From contig OX597818.1 in assembly GCA_951406725.2 (NCBI GenBank), positions 17,174,001 to 17,238,000 on the forward strand: 64,000 bases of DNA. Reading direction: 5' to 3'. The position numbers and the translations under genes are program-made. Origin of the DNA: Octopus vulgaris (taxonomy: Eukaryota). Shown in pieces: positions 25,688-60,424 of this stretch (positions within the stretch are counted from its first letter, which is position 1; each line of letters opens with the position of its first letter). The notes beneath the pieces were generated by a model. The model did not search any database. It saw only the letters and a list, made by a program, of their open reading frames with translations, and was not told the DNA's origin.

Positions 25688-25803
25688 GTTTCCACGGCAA
25701 GAACAACGTCGATATGGCTAGAATAGAAAGCATCTGTGACTGTCTCAATGATATCTTGGACGATTACCTGCAGTTGTATTATGAGAAAAATTTCAGCAAA
25801 AAG
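25688..25803 (+). CDS. S-crystallin coding exon 3
   Basis: Acceptor CACTCAG. Encodes (G)[38 protein letters not shown]. Donor GTAACT, phase 0. Confidence 0.95.
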
Positions 25804-26042
25804 GTAACTGCTTTCTCGTTTCATTTTCTTCTGTTTAATATTTTAAAACCATTTATTCGTCCCTCAAAGAAACTCCAGTCAAACAAATTTCATCTGGTAG
25901 GTTTTATTTGACGGTTTGACATAAATAAATGTTGCTTGGTGTATGTATGTACGTACGTACATACACCAAGCAACATTTATTTATTTATATATGCACATAC
26001 GTACATACATATGCACATACGTACATACATACATGCATACAT

Positions 26043-26700
26043 ACGAAGACATTACGCATGTGATTAACAGTTGTCCTAAAATGTCATCACGGTACTACCT
26101 CCCTATGCGGCACGATGTTGTTGCTAAAACAATTTACAATGCCATCCGCAAAAAAAAAAAAGACTGTCCGGAAATAAACTTAGAAAATCCCCCTGCTATG
26201 GAATACATTCATAAACACCAACTCAAGGAATACTGGTGGAATATTCCCATCAAAACTTCTGTTAAATGTAAACATAACATGCTGGATATTTTTGATTGGG
26301 ACAGAGGGGCAAATGTATGTACCGTCATGGAGGACAGCTGCCCTGCAAATATAAATCTCTCTTTGAAAATCAAAGAAAAAGTGGATATCTATGGAAAACT
26401 GCTTCGAAACCTCCAGCTTCTGTATCCATACAATGAATTCATATTCATACCAACAATAATTGGGGCACTAGGTTTTATTAGTAAAAGCTTAAAGGAGAAT
26501 CTGGATAAACTGGGATATTTTAGCAAGAGAAATCGACCGGCTGATTCGTACATTACAAGTAAAATCTGTGAGTGGAACAGTAAAAATATGCAAGACTTTT
26601 CTCAAGTTCCAAATGTGAATTTGTATGTGTTAGCTACATCCCAAAGAAGGAGCCTTGTATCTTTGTTGGAAACCAGCTGCCTCCTCATTAAAAGAAATAA
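26043..26700 (+). mobile_element. 5'-truncated second copy of the RLE-type non-LTR retrotransposon
   Basis: EDITHVINSCPKMSSRYYLPMRHDVVAK...YWWNIPIKTSVKCKHN..DIFDWD...IPTIIGALG; homologous to 24340-24950. Confidence 0.85.
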
Positions 26701-26799
26701 TTAGAAAATGGGAGACATACATACATACATACACATATACATACATACATACATACATACATACATACATACATACATACATACATACATACATACATA

Positions 26800-27428
26800 C
26801 AGCTTAGTCAACAGGAGAAACATTCTTCGCAGTGCTTGAACCAAAGTAAAGTACCGAAAACCTTCCCTAAACCCGAGCTCTTCAAAAAGAAAGTTATGGT
26901 GACTGTTAGGTAGTATACTGCCGGACTCATTCACTATAACTTCTTAAATCTCGGAAAAACTGCAGAAACATATTGCGGTGAAATTGTCACGATAAACGAA
27001 AAGCCGCTACTCCTCCGTCCCAAAATGTTCAACAGAAGAGCGCCAATCATTCTTCATGACAATGCTCGACAACACGTTTCACTAATGACGCTCCAGAAGT
27101 TGAGGGAACTTGGCAACGAATTCTTCTCCTGCCAGCTTATACCCCAGACCTTTCTCCTACCAACTACCACTTTTTCAAGCACCTTGATGGTTTCCTGCGA
27201 GAGAAGGAGTTCAGAAATCAAGCCGATGCTTAAAGTGCGTTCAAAGAATTCAGCAGTTCCGGAACTCCAGATTTTTATGTTACTGGAATAAAGAAACTTG
27301 TAACTCGTTGGCAAAAATGTGTTGATTGTAATGGTACTTACTTTGATGAATAAAATTTCCACATTGTTGAAATAAAGTGTGATGAATTTCACGTTTCAAA
27401 ACGTTTCTTACTTTTTACTCAACCTGAT
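26800..27428 (+). mobile_element. Mariner transposon 3' fragment
   Basis: IILHDNARQH, YTPDLSPTNYHFFKHL, GIKKLVTRWQKCVDCNGTYFDE*; TIR-like end TTACTCAACCTGA. Confidence 0.85.
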
Positions 27429-27490
27429 ATATTATACATACATACATACACACACATATATATACATATATATGTATATGTATATATATG

Positions 27491-27559
<69 letters not shown>

Positions 27560-27830
27560 AACCGGTGTTAATAAGCTTTGCGTAAACCATGGTCCGTTTT
27601 GTTCTCTTATTTGTTCTCTTTATTATCATCTTATAATCATCTCATAATAATGACTTTTATGACTCGTATTACTACCTCAGTCAATCTAAATGTATATATT
27701 TGTCGTTACCTGGCATAAATAGCCTTTTTCTATTTGCAATATGCATTTTCGTTGATTTTTCATATTTTACCCTTACATTTCCACGTGTATTTTATATTTT
27801 CTTTTCGTAACATATTTCTACTATATATAT

Positions 27831-27910
<80 letters not shown>

Positions 27911-28506
27911 TTGTATATATAGGCGCAGGCGTGGCTGTGTGGTAAGAAGCATGGCCACAGTCAGATGACTGGAATAAATAAAAGAATAAAAGAAAAAAGA
28001 ATGTATTATATATATTACAACCCAACGTCAGTGTGTGTGTGTGTGTGTGTGTGTGTATGACTGACATTCGGTCACTCCGCTCGATTTAAAATACAACCCA
28101 ACATCTGTGCGTGTGTGTGTACGTATGTGTGTATGTGTGTGTGTGTGTGTGACTGTATTATGTATATATCAAGACTATATTAGGTATATATCAGAAACGT
28201 TAGCACGTCGGGCGAAATGCTTAGCGATATTTCGTCTGTCTTTACGTTCTGAGTTCAAATTCCGCCGAGGTCGACTTTGCCTTTCATCCTTTCGGGTGCG
28301 ATAAATTAAGTACCAGTTGCCTACTGGGGTAGATCCAATCGTCTGACCCCCCACTCCTCAAAAATTTCGGGCCTTGTAACTAGAGTAGAAAAGTATATTA
28401 TGTATTTATTGATTTTCCCTAAAGTTAGGAAGAAACAAATTTGGTGGGACACTATTCTGTAGGTATCCCATAAGTGTAATATATCGACACACACATTAAC
28501 GTGTCG

Positions 28507-28599
<93 letters not shown>

Positions 28600-28789
28600 T
28601 ATGTGTGTGTGTGTGTATAACTGTAATAATCTCTATTGATATTGCTATAAGTACTCTTTTCTGCTCTAGGTACAAGGCCCGAAAGTTTGGGGGAGGGACC
28701 AGTCGATTAGATCGACCCCAGTACGCAACTGGTACTTAAATTATTGACCTCGAAAGGCATGAAAGGCAAAGTCAACATCTGCTGTCCAA

Positions 28790-29550
28790 TGAAACAAGAC
28801 TTGTCAAGAAATTAATGAGAAATCCCATAGAGATCACAATAATTTCTGACTGCGGAAAAGGCGAAGATGTTTTTATTCCACGCTTTCCTTTAATACCTTC
28901 CAATATGCCCTTCGAATTCAAACGACTTCAATTTCCAATACGTCTGTCTTTTGCAATATCCATTAATAAGTCCCAAGGCCAGACTTTGAAAGTTACTGGT
29001 TTGAGATTAGAAGAGGACTGTTTCTCATACGGTCAGTTATATGTTAGGACATCCAAAGTGTGGTGCAAAAGTAATTGTTTCATTTTTGCACCTACTGGTA
29101 AAACCCTAAAGACGTTTTTACCATGAGATCAACAAACTAAAATTTGAAGAATGATTAATAAACTTGAAGTGATATTATTAACGTTACACTATATTCGTCT
29201 AAGAAAAGCTATTTGTATTTTTGTTTGTTGAAATACTTAAGTTCAATAAGTTATAGTACAAACTTTTTTATTTTTCTTCAAACTTTTATTTACTTATCTT
29301 GTATTAGTCACAAGCCAAAGTTTGTCCGATGTTTGCTTCATTTATAGACTGAAATACTATAGATCATAGATCAGAAGTTTATATGCACCCATGATAATTT
29401 TGGCCAGAAGAAAACAGCTCTATCGTCTACATGAAAGTTAACAACCATTTTTTATATATGTTCAATACAATCTAAGTGAATAGCTTTGAATATTCATAAT
29501 ACAATTTTGGAAGCTTTTTCAACCCAGTCAATGAAGGGTATTTCTGCTAG
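28790..29550 (+). mobile_element. Helitron 3' fragment (Pif1-like helicase C-terminus)
   Basis: GKGEDVFIPRFPLIPSNMPFEFKRLQFPIRLSFAISINKSQGQTL...CFSYGQLYV. Weak hairpin, then CTAG at 29547-29550. Confidence 0.85.
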
Positions 29551-29556
29551 AGTATA

Positions 29557-29604
<48 letters not shown>

Positions 29605-29690
29605 CGTGTGTGTGTGTGTGAGCGTGTGTGTGTGTATGTATGTATGAATATATACATATATATATATATATATATTTATTATATAGAAGG

Positions 29691-29741
29691 AGCTTCTACA
29701 GGACTAGTACTGTTTCATTCAAGAGAAATCTTCAGGAAGCT
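29691..29741 (-). ncRNA. Type I hammerhead ribozyme motif (antisense arm copy)
   Basis: Exact reverse complement of 31501-31551. Confidence 0.75.
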
Positions 29742-30176
29742 ATTTAACAAGAATTGTATTAGCATTTATACATTTAGGCAGGTTTAAAGGAGTGGTGGTG
29801 GGGGACTTTTTGGGGGTAGGCATAGCGCAAAATATCATACTTGGGGGAGTGGTCAAGGAGTCAGTGGTAAGTTAGATGAAAGAATAGATAAATAAAAAAA
29901 TAAAAAAATAAATAAAAAATAAAAAATAAAAAATAAAATATAAAAAAATAAAAAAATAAAAAAATAAAATAAAAAAATAAAAAAATAAAAATATAAAAAA
30001 TATATATATAAAAAATATATATATAAAATATATATATAAATATAAATATAAATATAAAAAAATATATATATAAAAAAAGGGGGGATAGAGTTATAGGTAA
30101 ATAAGGAGATTCTCACTTATACCTATACACACATGTATACGTATCTACACACACACACATACATACACATATATAT

Positions 30177-30218
<42 letters not shown>

Positions 30219-31016
30219 CACATACATACCTACACATACACACATACATACATACAAATATACATATACATATATATATATATACAATCCAATACAGGCC
30301 CATTCCCTAATTTTAATTTTATTATCTTCATTTATTACTTTTGTTATCTTTGATCGCTAGGGCTAAGAATCCTGGCAATGGCTGCATGTCCATTTGTCTG
30401 TCTACTAGAAGGCAAGTACTCATTCCCGCACGCACACTCATTAGCACGTACATTCACCCATTCGTACACTCATACACATACACGTACGCACGCGTTATAT
30501 TCATACATACAAACATCTACATACATTCACGTATATACACATACGTACTCGTACCTACAGATTCGTGTCTACACTTTAGGAGGCTAGTCTATACACATAC
30601 GTACTCGTACCTACAGATTCGTGTCTACACTTTAGGAGGCTAGTCTATATGTATAGACTAGCCTCCTAAAGTGTAGACACGAATCTGTAGGTACGAGTAC
30701 GTATGTGTATATACGTGAATGTATGTAGATGTTTGTATGTATGAATGTAACGCGTGCGTACGTGTATGTGTATGAGTGTACGAATGGGTGAATGTACGTG
30801 CTAATGAGTGTGCGTGCGGGAATGAGTACTTGCCTTCTAGTAGACAGACAAATGGACATGCAGCCATTGCCAGGATTCTTAGCCCTAGCGATCAAAGATA
30901 ACAAAAGTAATAAATGAAGATAATAAAATTAAAATTAGGGAATGGGCCTGTATTGGATTGTATATATATATATATGTATATGTATATTTGTATGTATGTA
31001 TGTGTGTATGTGTAGG

Positions 31017-31061
<45 letters not shown>

Positions 31062-31500
31062 ATATATATGTGTATGTATGTGTGTGTGTGTAGATACGTA
31101 TACATGTGTGTATAGGTATAAGTGAGAATCTCCTTATTTACCTATAACTCTATCCCCCCCTTTTTTTATATATATATTTTTTTATATTTATATTTATATT
31201 TATATATATTTTTTATATATATATTTTTTTTATATATATATTTTTTATATTTTTTATTTTTTAATTTTTTTATTTTATATTTTTTTATTTTTTTATTTTT
31301 TTATATTTTATTTTTTATTTTTTTATTTTTTTATTTTTTTATTTTTTTATTTATCTATTCTTTCATCTAACTTACCACTGACTCCTTGACCACTCCCCCA
31401 AGTATGATATTTTGCGCTATGCCTACCCCCAAAAAGTCCCCCACCACCACTCCTTTAAACCTGCCTAAATGTATAAATGCTAATACAATTCTTGTTAAAT

Positions 31501-31551
31501 AGCTTCCTGAAGATTTCTCTTGAATGAAACAGTACTAGTCCTGTAGAAGCT
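31501..31551 (+). ncRNA. Type I hammerhead ribozyme motif
   Basis: Stem I AGCTTC/GAAGCT; core CTGAAGA; stem II TTC-TCTT-GAA; GAAA; stem III CAG-TACTAGTC-CTG; GUA cleavage triplet (after 31545). Confidence 0.78.
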
Positions 31552-31634
31552 CCTTCTATATAATAAATTAATTTTACTCTGCTATGTATTGAGTACCTTA
31601 CTTACTGTGGTTAACCCCGAATCAACCCGGGACC

Positions 31635-31737
<103 letters not shown>

Positions 31738-31841
31738 CTGTAGATTAATATGTGACAATTATTCAATAGCCAAGATAAAACTCTGAGTTTCGGATGCCGA
31801 AGTGGAAATCCACAACACCATCGCTTCGGTTATCTGGCCAG

Positions 31842-32479
31842 ATATATCCATATATCCGGAACCGGAGTCACTGAGGCAGTTACTGAAGAAGTCTTTACCA
31901 ATCTATTGGCCGGCCACTCTTGCTGCGGGAGAGGTCACCATTCATAACGATCATTGTGCCGATGGACAATACACCAAAATACTTGCGGCATTTCGTTCAT
32001 CTTTACGTTCTGGGATCAAATTCCACCGAAGTCGACTTTGTTTTCATCCTTTCGAGGTCAATGAAATAAGTACCAGTTGAACTCTGGGGCCGATGTATAG
32101 TATAAGGCGGCGGACTGGCTGAATTGTTAGCACGTCAGAAAATAAAGGATGCTCTACGTCACCGAGATTGACTTTGTCGTTCATCGTGCGGGGTCAATAA
32201 AATAAGTAGCAGCTGAGCATTAAGATCGATGTAATCAGCTTACCCACACCCTCAAAATTTCTAACTTTGAGATAAAATTTTAAACCATTGCTATAGCTTA
32301 GTCTTCGGTTACTTTTCGCAGTTATTTTCGAATTGATTGTTATTTATTACAGGCTGCATTGCGTGATCATTACAATGACACGTGCCGCAGGATACTCCCT
32401 TTTCTGGAGAAGACGTTGGGGCAATACGACAATGGCACAAAGTATTTCTTTGGAGAACAGGTAAGCTTGTTTACATATA

Positions 32480-36592: not shown

Positions 36593-37545
36593 GGTTAACG
36601 TCCGCTTTCCATGCTAGCATGGGTTGGACGGTTCAACTGGGGTCTGGGAAGCCCGAAGGCTGCACCAGGCCAGTCAGATCTGGCAGTGTTTCTACAGCTG
36701 GATGCCCTTCCTAACGCCAACCACTCCGTGAGTGTAGTGGGTGCTTTTTATGTGCCACCGACACAGGTGCCAGACGAGGCTGGCGAACGGCCACGCTCGG
36801 ATGGTGCTTTTTATGTGCCACCGACACAGGTGCCAGACGAGGCTGGCGAACGGCCACGCTCGGATGGTGTTTTTTTATGTGCCACCGACACAGGTGCCAG
36901 ACGAGGCTGGCGAACGGCCACGCTCGGATGGTGTTTTTTACGTGCCACCGACATGGAGGCCAGGCGAGGCTGGCACGGCCACGATCGAATGGTGTTTGTT
37001 ACGTGCCCACAGCACGGAGGCCAGTCGATGCGGTACTGGCTACGGCCACGTTCGGATGGCTTTCGTATTGTGCCACCGGCACTGGTACCACAAAAATACA
37101 AATTCCATTGATGTTCTTCGATTTTGATTTGATTTGATTTTCACTTGCCTCAACAGGTCTTCACAAGTGTCCCAAGAACGGAGGTATGCACAGGTGGACT
37201 GACTACGTCCCAGGTAGGGGCCATGGGTTATGGCCTCACGTATCCTGCCGGGTCTTCTCGCGCACAGCATACTTCCAAAGGTCTCGGTCTCTGGGCATTT
37301 CCTCGGTGAGACCTAAAGCGCGAAGGTCGTTCTTCACCACCTCGTCCCAGGTTTTCTGGGTCTACCTCTTCCACAGGTTCCCTCAACCGCTAGGTGTGGC
37401 ACTTTTTCACACAACTATCTTCATCCATTCTTACTACGTGTCCATACCAGCGTAGACGCCTCTCTTGCACACCACATCTGATGCTTCTTAGGTCCAACTT
37501 TTTCTCTCAAGGCACTTACACTCTGTCGGGTATGAACACTGACAT
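36545..37545 (-). mobile_element. RTE-clade LINE 3' end with (GAT)n tail
   Basis: Minus strand gives RRLRWYGHVVRMDEDSCVKKCH, EGTCGRGRP and KTWDEVVKNDLRALGLTEEM (with frameshifts). (CAT)n at about 36545-36591. Confidence 0.85.
36740..37085. repeat. 63-bp GC-rich minisatellite (~5.5 units) in the RTE 3' UTR
   Basis: GGTGCTTTTTATGTGCCACCGACACAGGTGCCAGACGAGGCTGGCGAACGGCCACGCTCGGAT starts at 36740, 36803 and 36866, then diverged units follow. Confidence 0.9.
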
Positions 37546-47855: not shown

Positions 47856-49927
47856 AACAAATATATATACATGTATATACACAAGTGTGAGTGTGTGCAT
47901 ACGTGTGCGTATGTGTGGGGGGTTGCTGGGTGCGTCTGTGCATGTATTCCATGTAGCCAACGAACAGTACCAACTAAAGAACAGTATTAATTAAATGTTG
48001 CATTTAACAAGAAAGTCCTTTGTCTTTTAATAAGTTTAAATAATCCTGGCTAGACTTTTGGAATGAATCACTCTCAGATTAACAGAATTTCTCAACTATA
48101 TATATAGATAGGAGCTGTTTTGAGTTCAGAAAATAGTCACTGAAACCGAGTGACGAGTTAAATCGTAAAAAACAAACAATAAATTTTTTTAACAATCCAT
48201 TTATATATATACATATATATATATATATATACATATATACTTAAAACACCACAGCATATAAATAAGCAGTGATTTGTCTTTACGTTGTCTTCTAGCCACA
48301 AGAAGAGTTCCTTGTGTGTCTTTAATCAACCAATCAATCCAACCTTGTTACGATGCCTTCCTACACTCTGTACTATTTCAACGGTCGTGGCAGAGCCGAG
48401 ATCTGTCGATTTCTTTTCACTATAGCTGATATTCAATATAGCGACAAGAGGATCGAATATTCAGAATGGACCCAAATGAAATGCAGTCAGTAATTTTTTA
48501 ATATATTTTTTGCTCATGTTTTCTTTCTTCTTGCTTTATATTGTCTTCAGCTTTTTATTAAAAAAAAATTCAAGAGAGAATTTACCATGGAGTACTGCAG
48601 GTTCATTTTTGATATTTTAGGAAGGAGTTCATTAAAAATATCTAGCCTGAGATACAATATGCCTGAAAATAGCCGAAATGGTCATGGATGCAACGCTTTT
48701 GACCAAAGCTTACGCGGTGTGGGTGCTCTTAACAGAACTACCATAATTTCTTATTTCTTTATGGCCCACAAGGGGCTAAACATAGAGGGGACAAACAATG
48801 ACAGACAAACGGATTAAGTCGATTACATCAATCCCAGTGCGTAACTGGTACTTAATTTATCGACCTCGAAAGGATGAAAGGCAAAGTCGACCTCGGCGGA
48901 ATTTGAACTCAGAACATAACGGCAGACGAATTACTGCTAAGCATTTCGCCCGGCGTGCTAACGTTTCTGCCAGCTCACCGCCTTAGAACTACCATAGTTT
49001 CTAGGAATGTTTATATTTTGTCAGATGCTTTGCTTCTTCATATGCAAATAATGCCAAGAATATATACAGACAGATTGGTTAATTTATATCGGTTTATGCT
49101 TTTGAGGAAACCGTGTCCTACCAGTTAGAAACACAAGGAGGATCCCTTGATAAGGAATCGGTATTTCGTTATAAATTGTTCTTGATCTTTTATTCTATGC
49201 TTTTACTTGTGACCCATACATAAATTGTGGGTACTTAGTATTGTTTAGTAGGATATTTGATAAGCAGTTTAAATTGAAGCCGACATTTCTTTTCTGGCCC
49301 ATGTCTAGTTCATTGTAGCTGAAGTGGTGCATATCTATGATATCTGGCCTGGATTTGTAAACAGCTTTACGCGGATCTGAGTATTTATCTTTAATAAGTA
49401 AATTTTTAAATATTTATTACTCACTAAGTAGCCGAGTTGGCAGCGTCGTTACCACGCCGCGCAAAATGCTTAGCAGCATTTCGTCCGTCTTTATGTTCTG
49501 AGTTTAAATTCCGCTAAGGTCGACGTTGCCTTTCATCATTCGGGTTCGTTAAAATAAGTACTCATAGAGCACTGGGGTGGATGTAATCTCCTCTCCAGAA
49601 ATTGTTGGCCTTATGCCATAATTTGAAAACAAAATTTTATACACCCACTATCTCATTAATTAAATGCACAGTTAACTATATATCTCATAAAAGACTGTTT
49701 TATCATAAAGTCGCCAAGCATTAGTAAACATTATTTAAAAATAGTGACGACAATAAGAAATAAAATTGGGTGTAGGCGTGGCTGTATGGTAAGAAGTTTG
49801 CTTCCCAATCACATGCCTCCTGGTTTTGTCCCGTTGTGTGGCATCTTCGGCAAGTGTCTTCTACTATAGCCTCGGGCCGACTAAAATCTTGTGAGGAGAT
49901 TTGGTAGATGGAAAGTGAAAGAAGCCC

Positions 49928-59960: not shown

Positions 59961-60287
<327 letters not shown>

Positions 60288-60356
60288 CATATTACTCTAC
60301 CACTGGTATTTGAGTACTCTTTTTTCCACCTTGTTTCACATTTATGTGTTTACTCC

Positions 60357-60424
<68 letters not shown>

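What the first reader, a model, noticed from the sequence alone, without database searches (positions are those of the whole stretch)
29674..31568. 1.9-kb palindrome in crystallin intron 3 puts a sense-strand hammerhead in the pre-mRNA with its own antisense lock
Seen: the well-formed hammerhead at 31501-31551 is on the transcribed strand about 800 nt upstream of exon 4. Its exact complement (29691-29741) is transcribed earlier in the same intron. The arms differ in microsatellite length, at least one substitution (GTTATATTC vs GTTACATTC) and a 56-bp duplication near the centre, which argues against a simple read fold-back artefact. Inference: the pre-mRNA can self-cleave or form ~0.9 kb of dsRNA that masks the ribozyme. 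That dsRNA would be a strong ADAR substrate, and coleoids are known for heavy A-to-I editing.
Basis: partly seen in the sequence, partly recalled or inferred. Interest (0 to 1): 0.75.

Follow-up and report, generated by a model that had tools for sequence, protein, structure and literature searches.

The report
Young Penelope retrotransposon inverted insertion
This mirror-image stretch in a crystallin-like gene's intron is one copy of a jumping gene with hundreds of near-identical copies that routinely insert as mirror images, so its predicted self-cutting RNA motif and the antisense copy that would mask it are likely by-products of insertion, not a host control switch.

Summary
The palindrome and the hammerhead-like motif are real, but not special to this gene. 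They are one insertion (about 29674-31639) of a young Hydra-clade Penelope-like retrotransposon. The 44-nt ribozyme core occurs 1,726 times exactly in this genome, and 64 of the first 100 listed copies sit in head-to-head pairs. Inverted copies and tails are published Penelope features, and this scan has met the layout before on other DNA of this genome. The hammerhead has a full core but a weak helix II. The antisense arm would mask it in any host transcript, whichever way the element inserts. Cleavage, editing and splicing effects could not be tested. Added here: the two arms of one insertion share variants (32 shared; 3.6 expected), and either arm can be the longer one (14 versus 13). That argues against simple fold-back copying and for two cDNAs primed from the two target strands. 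Verdict: new member of a known kind; modest mechanistic interest.

The parts
29674..31639 (.). Whole insertion: two 5'-truncated 3' ends of a Hydra-clade Penelope-like element joined head to head (ends uncertain by 2-4 nt because they merge with (TA)n)
   Evidence: segments match other copies at 99-100%
29674..30645 (-). Left arm: element 3' UTR/pLTR in antisense to the host gene; short end (stops 17 nt past the hammerhead); includes the 56-bp duplication
29691..29741 (-). Hammerhead copy on the - strand (its complement is what the host pre-mRNA carries)
29891..29989 (+). A-rich tract of the left arm with 13 AATAAA hexamers on the host sense strand
30534..30645 (+). 56-bp tandem duplication; TATACA occurs at both ends of the unit in family copies, so a template slip at joining is inferred
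30642..30649 (.). Arm-to-arm junction with a 4-nt self-complementary TATA overlap
   Evidence: (gap -4)
30646..31568 (+). Right arm: element 3' UTR/pLTR in the sense of the host gene
31501..31551 (+). Type I hammerhead motif: helix I 6 bp, weak helix II, helix III 4 bp with 8-nt loop containing ACUAGU; predicted cut 31545/31546
   Evidence: 1,726 exact copies of the 44-nt core
31569..31639 (+). ~70-nt Penelope 'tail' on one end only; in full-length copies it continues into the ORF start
29648..29675 (.). Left (TA)n target flank
31638..31737 (.). Right (TA)n target flank
25689..25803 (+). Host coding exon 3 (S-crystallin/GST-like gene)
32353..32460 (+). Host coding exon 4

Best explanation
The palindrome is one insertion of a high-copy, near-identical Hydra-clade Penelope-like retrotransposon family into a (TA)n tract of coding intron 3, made of two 5'-truncated 3' ends joined head to head, and it was likely built when the element's enzyme primed two cDNAs, one from each target strand. 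Shown: family identity, copy number, the one-short-end/one-tail-end layout, the (TA)n target, shared variants between arms, and that either arm can be the longer. Inferred: the endonuclease cuts both strands of (TA)n; two reverse transcriptases start at two fixed sites ~70 nt apart just 3' of the hammerhead, on the same RNA or RNAs of one source copy; both stop early (here after ~0.9-1 kb); the two cDNA ends are joined through a short self-complementary overlap (TATA), with a 56-nt template slip. The hammerhead belongs to the element's pLTR. In the host pre-mRNA it is predicted to be masked, because the antisense arm is made first and the hairpin zips up from the centre; this would be true of every such insertion in either orientation. 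The expected host effect is small: an intronic hairpin that may be A-to-I edited but contains no exon or annotated splice site.
For: Arm segments: top 40 of 936 candidates 100% identical over 211 bp; 40 scored of 1,354 candidates 99-100% over 321 bp. 1,726 exact hammerhead cores, 0 in the reversed control. Of the first 100 listed, 64 are in 32 adjacent -/+ pairs within 11 kb; 3 -/- neighbours; none +/+ or +/-. Longer copies continue into an ORF with Hydra motifs RWR, DKT, YRDD, CxCx5C, VY..YIG, CxxC, CxH (definition in PMC8557442 section 11). 45 of 59 stretches hold an inverted pair and all 45 are long/short. Arms share 32 variants and differ at 10 over a 311-bp segment in 26 two-arm insertions; permutation means 3.6 (max 14) and 66.8 (min 46) in 10,000 shuffles. 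In 38 simple insertions the tail arm is longer in 14, the short-end arm in 13, about equal in 11. Short-read contigs of independent runs show both end types running into (TA)n and the antisense-to-sense hammerhead junction (table 7). In vitro, a Poseidon element nicks and extends both strands and starts at two sites that bound the tail (PMC11167929).
Against: No contig bridges this insertion's own central junctions, so this copy was not confirmed outside the assembly. 14 of 59 stretches show no inverted partner within ~10 kb. Most stretches were picked by a tail-bearing query (40 so labelled by the script, two of them wrongly), which forces one long end; only 13 pairs plus the window are free of that bias. 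Shared variants between arms could also come from gene conversion after insertion or from assembly consensus. Pfam gives only a weak RT match (E 0.011) and no GIY-YIG match for the family ORF; no tree was built. The family unit (5.1 kb) and tail (~70 nt) are longer than published values (<3 kb; 30-40 nt).
Confidence: 0.88

Rival explanations
1. Host-adapted switch: the crystallin pre-mRNA chooses between self-cleavage and a protective, edited duplex.
For: Sense hammerhead with complete core in the intron and an exact antisense copy upstream. Intronic repeats are edited in coleoids (PMC9068888).
Against: Arms differ from the family majority at only 1 and 2 of 311 positions and 0 of 211 at the hammerhead end, so the insertion is very young. 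The layout is family-wide. Nothing in it is gene-specific except the junction. Duplex beats hammerhead fold by ~85 kcal/mol.
Confidence: 0.04
2. Passive side effect (compatible with the best explanation): the insertion does alter this gene's RNA, by hyper-editing or small RNAs from the hairpin, premature polyadenylation at the AATAAA run of the first-made arm, or transcription from the right-arm pLTR towards exon 4.
For: 13 AATAAA in 29891-29989 versus 11 in the other 4,582 nt of the intron. ~0.9-kb predicted duplex. Palindromic Penelope copies give small RNAs in a rotifer (PMC3846280, passages).
Against: No RNA data for this locus. The insert ends 713 nt from the 3' splice site and holds no exon. 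No A>G excess among family singleton changes in element sense (1 A>G, 7 T>C of 36), though this tests templates and not host transcripts.
Confidence: 0.25
3. Same element, but the palindrome arises by fold-back self-priming of one strand (as proposed for rotifer Penelope copies, on an antisense template).
For: Self-complementary overlaps at junctions (window TATA; L066 AGGCCT centre). Arms share variants. 11 of 38 insertions have near-equal arms. Proposed in PMC3846280.
Against: A copied-back arm can hold nothing its template lacks. The template would have to be the tail arm and the longer arm, yet in 13 of 38 insertions the short-end arm is longer by >150 nt, up to ~2.9 kb.
Confidence: 0.15
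4. Assembly artefact from fold-back long reads.
For: The assembly seems to miscall homopolymers. No contig bridges this junction.
Against: The mirror stops at an element-defined point and the two flanks differ; exon order continues across it. The same asymmetric ends recur in 45 of 45 pairs. Independent short-read contigs show both end types and a head-to-head junction.
Confidence: 0.03

Closest known systems
Hydra-clade endonuclease-positive Penelope-like elements (Craig et al. 2021, PMC8557442), including Hydra-1_Obim from Octopus bimaculoides
   Same: Single ORF, RT then C-terminal GIY-YIG-type region; DKT, RW[K/R], CxCx5C, CxxC and CxH motifs, no CCHH; hammerhead in the pLTR; (TA)n target; partial tandems, inverted 5'-truncated copy, tail at one end.
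   Different: A separate family: hammerhead sequence differs from the Hydra-1_Obim entry and the protein is only distantly alike (by eye). Unit is 5.1 kb because of a ~3-kb microsatellite-rich 3' region; tail ~70 nt rather than 30-40; currently expanding.
Poseidon element PAc of Anolis (Frangieh et al. 2024, PMC11167929)
   Same: Two start sites bounding a tail; both target strands nicked and extended in vitro; AT-rich target; hammerhead beside the ORF start.
   Different: Different clade; there the hammerhead overlaps the start codon, here the ATG lies ~130 nt past the hammerhead. The two of four parts that I read report no rule pairing the two starts with the two ends of one insertion.
Minimal type I hammerheads of metazoan Penelope elements (Cervera and de la Pena 2014, PMC4209133)
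   Same: Type I core in pLTRs; pairs on opposite strands 100-700 bp apart already noted there.
   Different: Here helix III is a 4-bp stem with an 8-nt loop and helix II is short with U.U in place of the usual G10.1-C11.1; monomer activity cannot be ruled out.
Non-LTR retrozymes (PMC7229834; bioRxiv 10.64898/2026.07.22.740005)
   Same: Type I hammerhead in a dispersed animal repeat related to Penelope pLTRs.
   Different: No tandem 150-450-nt monomers; this is the truncated end of a protein-coding element.
LINE-1 twin priming
   Same: Second target strand primes a second cDNA; inverted segment; short overlap at the junction.
   Different: In LINE-1 the inverted part is the adjacent upstream segment; here both arms start at fixed sites at the same 3' region, giving a long palindrome.

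Membership tests
Hydra-clade Penelope-like element | Single ORF with RT followed by C-terminal GIY-YIG endonuclease | tested here: met
   713-aa ORF in L110; YRDD at 347, VY..YIG at 587; RVT_1 E 0.011 on the RT part; Atlas neighbours at 0.96-0.99 include GIY-YIG and RVT_1 clusters; 21% identity over 464 aa to a Neptune-type ORF. Pfam GIY-YIG itself not matched.
Hydra-clade Penelope-like element | DKT in place of DKG; RWK motif | tested here: met
   DKT at 116; RWR (conservative variant) at 38
Hydra-clade Penelope-like element | CxCx5C linker, CxxC and CxH near the C-terminus, no CCHH in the endonuclease | tested here: met
   CNCPDKTTC at 567, the only CxxC at 667, CMH at 695
Hydra-clade Penelope-like element | Hammerhead in pLTR and (TA)n insertion bias | tested here: met
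   Hammerhead upstream of the ORF and at the 3' end in L141, L143; ends run into (TA)n
Hydra-clade Penelope-like element | Generally short (<3 kb); a tendency, not a strict criterion | tested here: not met
   Unit 5,104 bp between hammerheads in L141
Hydra-clade Penelope-like element | Placement in the clade on an RT/EN tree | not tested
   Reference proteins were seen only as paper supplement text
EN+ Penelope inverted insertion | Inverted 5'-truncated copy with a tail at one end only | tested here: met
   45 of 45 inverted pairs long/short; tail ~70 nt, longer than the 30-40 nt reported
Type I hammerhead ribozyme | Conserved core and helices I and III | tested here: met
   CUGAaGA, GAAA, GUA; helix I 6 bp (p 0.72-1.0), helix III 4 bp (p 0.67-0.74)
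Type I hammerhead ribozyme | Stable helix II with G10.1-C11.1 | tested here: not met
   U.U then 3 bp, p 0.09-0.11; no Rfam match at gathering score. An axolotl motif with U.U at this place cleaved weakly (PMC7229834).
Type I hammerhead ribozyme | Self-cleavage at the predicted site | not testable with these tools
   Only contigs were available; they cannot show RNA ends
Non-LTR retrozyme | Tandem non-coding monomers of 150-450 nt, each with a hammerhead | tested here: not met
   No such array; arms are 3' ends of a coding element
S-crystallin (host gene) | Sequence closest to S-crystallin among GST-fold proteins | tested here: met
   Exon 1: best PDB hit S-crystallin OctvuS4, E 1.3e-17; next 1.6e-10
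S-crystallin (host gene) | Lens expression | not tested
   Gene lies outside the main cluster and its last exon is 42-58% identical to 26 paralogs

The most novel reading that the evidence does not exclude
Penelope inverted insertions are made by paired priming on one template: a dimeric enzyme cuts both strands of (TA)n, each subunit starts at one of two fixed sites on the same RNA, and the two cDNAs are joined by microhomology. This would explain tail, inversion and truncation in one step and replace the antisense self-priming model. As a by-product every such insertion masks its own ribozyme in any host transcript, which may let an active ribozyme-bearing element colonise introns.
Probability: 0.45. 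Interest if true: 0.55.

Novelty: new member of a known kind. Interest (0 to 1): 0.27.

Why it matters
For the crystallin gene it probably matters little: this is a recent transposon insertion. For transposon biology, how Penelope elements form inverted repeats and tails is stated to be unresolved (PMC8557442). A young family with hundreds of near-identical insertions and an apparently intact 713-aa enzyme makes the question testable by genome census and in vitro. It also warns that hammerhead-plus-antisense palindromes in this genome are common transposon footprints.

Tried and rejected
Rfam scan of the window at gathering thresholds: no match. Sequencing-run search: no holder on record as RNA, all contigs, so no test of expression, cleavage ends or editing. 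Laying DNA contigs of 4 runs on the central junction: none bridges it, which shows nothing either way. Search for a duplicate or empty allele with the left flank: only an older repeat family at 77-90%, no second copy of the locus. ADAR marks in templates: no A>G excess (1 A>G, 7 T>C among 36 singleton events in 39 insertions, microsatellites and homopolymers masked). Programmed frameshift in the family ORF: 73 of the first 100 listed copies (171 in all) are one base short in a C run, 22 in frame, 5 other, but contigs of all 4 runs laid carry the extra C, so assembly miscalling is likelier; not settled. Naiad membership rejected (endonuclease is C-terminal). The Neptune-type ORF in L072/L139 first looked like the family's ORF but is a nested insertion. 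Retrozyme rejected. Look-ups of earlier notes near the window and by sequence found nothing. A target-site duplication cannot be read inside (TA)n.

Full report
Observation. The inverted repeat is real: arms from 29674 and 31568 align with 912 matches, 4 mismatches and 17 gap columns, with a 56-bp duplication at the centre. The motif at 31501-31551 has a complete type I hammerhead core and a predicted cut at 31545/31546; 29691-29741 is its exact complement. The host gene is S-crystallin-like on the + strand, and the insert lies in coding intron 3, 25804-32352.

It is a transposon copy. The hammerhead end matches the top 40 of 936 candidates at 100% over 211 bp, and an inner segment matches the 40 scored of 1,354 candidates at 99-100%. 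The 44-nt core occurs exactly 870 + 856 times, the reversed control 0 times. Among the first 100 places listed (all on one contig), 64 form 32 adjacent -/+ pairs within 11 kb; there are 3 -/- neighbours and no +/+ or +/-. Longer copies continue into an ORF. One copy gives 713 aa without a break and carries RWR, DKT, YRDD, CxCx5C, VY..YIG, CxxC and CxH, the features given for the Hydra clade (PMC8557442, section 11 read whole). That paper's supplement lists a Hydra family from Octopus bimaculoides with a different hammerhead (supplement passages). Pfam support is weak (RVT_1 E 0.011, no GIY-YIG); the Atlas places the protein next to clusters with these domains. No tree was built.

Layout. I examined 59 distinct stretches (61 less two duplicates, window included). 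45 hold an outer inverted pair, and all 45 have one short end (about 17 nt past the hammerhead) and one long end (about 85-90 nt past it); 14 show no partner within the stretch. Most were picked by a tail-bearing query, so the unbiased part is 13 pairs plus the window, and the fact that the partner was never long. Short-read contigs from four runs of four studies show, between them, both end types running into (TA)n, and two runs show the antisense-to-sense hammerhead junction. No contig bridges this copy's own centre. An unrelated family made the same layout at 60096-60360. Inverted 5'-truncated copies with a one-sided tail are published Penelope features (PMC8557442 passages; PMC3846280 passages), and opposite-strand hammerhead pairs were noted in 2014 (PMC4209133, parts 1-2 of 4). 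Earlier notes of this scan report the same layout and the short/long rule on other DNA of this genome; I had seen the rule and count those notes as leads, not support.

Mechanism. Two tests go beyond the layout. First, over a 311-bp segment in the 26 insertions with both arms covering it, arms share 32 variants and differ at 10; shuffling arms between insertions gives 3.6 shared (max 14) and 66.8 discordant (min 46) in 10,000 rounds. So both arms come from one source, unless conversion or assembly made them alike. Second, in 38 simple two-arm insertions (L139 with its nested element, and stretches with three hammerheads or no partner, left out) the tail arm is longer in 14, the short-end arm in 13, and 11 are within 150 nt. 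A copied-back strand cannot hold sequence that its template lacks, so one-strand fold-back, proposed in PMC3846280, fails for the 13. Two cDNAs primed from the two target strands fit all cases. This agrees with in vitro work in which a Poseidon protein nicked and extended both strands and started at two sites bounding the tail (PMC11167929, parts 1-2 of 4). Junctions often show short overlaps or templated inserts; in the window a TATA overlap and a 56-nt slip. These joining steps are inferred.

The ribozyme in the host RNA. Helices I and III are predicted; helix II is U.U plus 3 bp with probability about 0.1, and Rfam does not call it. Metazoan Penelope hammerheads showed no or low cleavage alone, the Anolis one needed the element's protein and was dispensable for insertion in vitro, and an axolotl motif with U.U at the base of helix II cleaved weakly (PMC7229834 passages). 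The larger helix III here means monomer activity is not excluded. The whole insert is predicted to fold as one hairpin with all 51 hammerhead nucleotides paired. By symmetry any host transcript meets the antisense arm first, so the lock is automatic and not a choice. Editing of the hairpin is plausible, since ubiquitous coleoid editing falls on repeats in introns and 3' UTRs (PMC9068888 passages), but no exon is in the duplex, so recoding is not expected. No raw RNA reads were available. Family copies show no A>G excess. Vertebrate retrozymes are reported to avoid introns (bioRxiv 10.64898/2026.07.22.740005, abstract and part 1 of 5), which suggests the test of solo versus palindromic copies proposed above.

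Against my reading. This copy is unconfirmed outside the assembly; its presence in other animals is unknown; the assembly seems to miscall homopolymers; samples were not random; a passive effect on the gene (13 AATAAA in the first arm) remains open. The species label 'octopus' rests on the best structural hit, the genome size and earlier notes, not on a record name.

Verdict. Observation confirmed; interpretation partly supported as a physical prediction, not as a host device. New member of a known kind. Interest 0.27; the paired-priming reading has probability about 0.45 and would merit about 0.55.

Noticed in passing
window 60096-60360: A second, unrelated mini-palindrome: two opposite-strand hammerhead motifs of another family (arms match at 84 of 85 nt), a ~70-nt extension on one side, (TA)n on both sides; probably in an intron of the next crystallin-like gene.
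   Followed up: partly
window 29891-29989: 13 AATAAA hexamers on the host sense strand in the first-transcribed arm; a possible intronic polyadenylation signal.
   Followed up: partly
L141 position 4006 and 171 genomic sites: Most assembled copies are one C short in the family ORF, while contigs of four independent runs carry the extra C; likely homopolymer miscalling in the assembly, or a frameshifted sublineage.
   Followed up: partly
G000:C1, first 100 hits: 10 of 32 head-to-head pairs are back-to-back hammerheads only 48-67 nt apart: a recurrent mini-palindrome product; the junction is also seen in short-read contigs.
   Followed up: partly
L072:5752-8061 (-): A Neptune-type Penelope element with a 770-aa stop-free RT/GIY-YIG frame is nested in a (TA)n tract of one arm of this family.
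   Followed up: partly
window 15424-38359 and 48353-48487: The host gene and its neighbour lie in a small group of three hits at C5:17.0-17.25 Mb, far from the main cluster of 24 hits at C5:90.6-92.0 Mb.
   Followed up: partly
L061 versus L063: The family has two 3'-UTR length variants differing by roughly 430 bp; the window carries the short one.
   Followed up: no
L115, L136, L145 junctions: Short locally templated insertions at arm junctions, resembling microhomology-mediated end joining scars.
   Followed up: no
window 36740-37007: A 63-bp GC-rich tandem repeat (4.3 copies) in the next intron.
   Followed up: no
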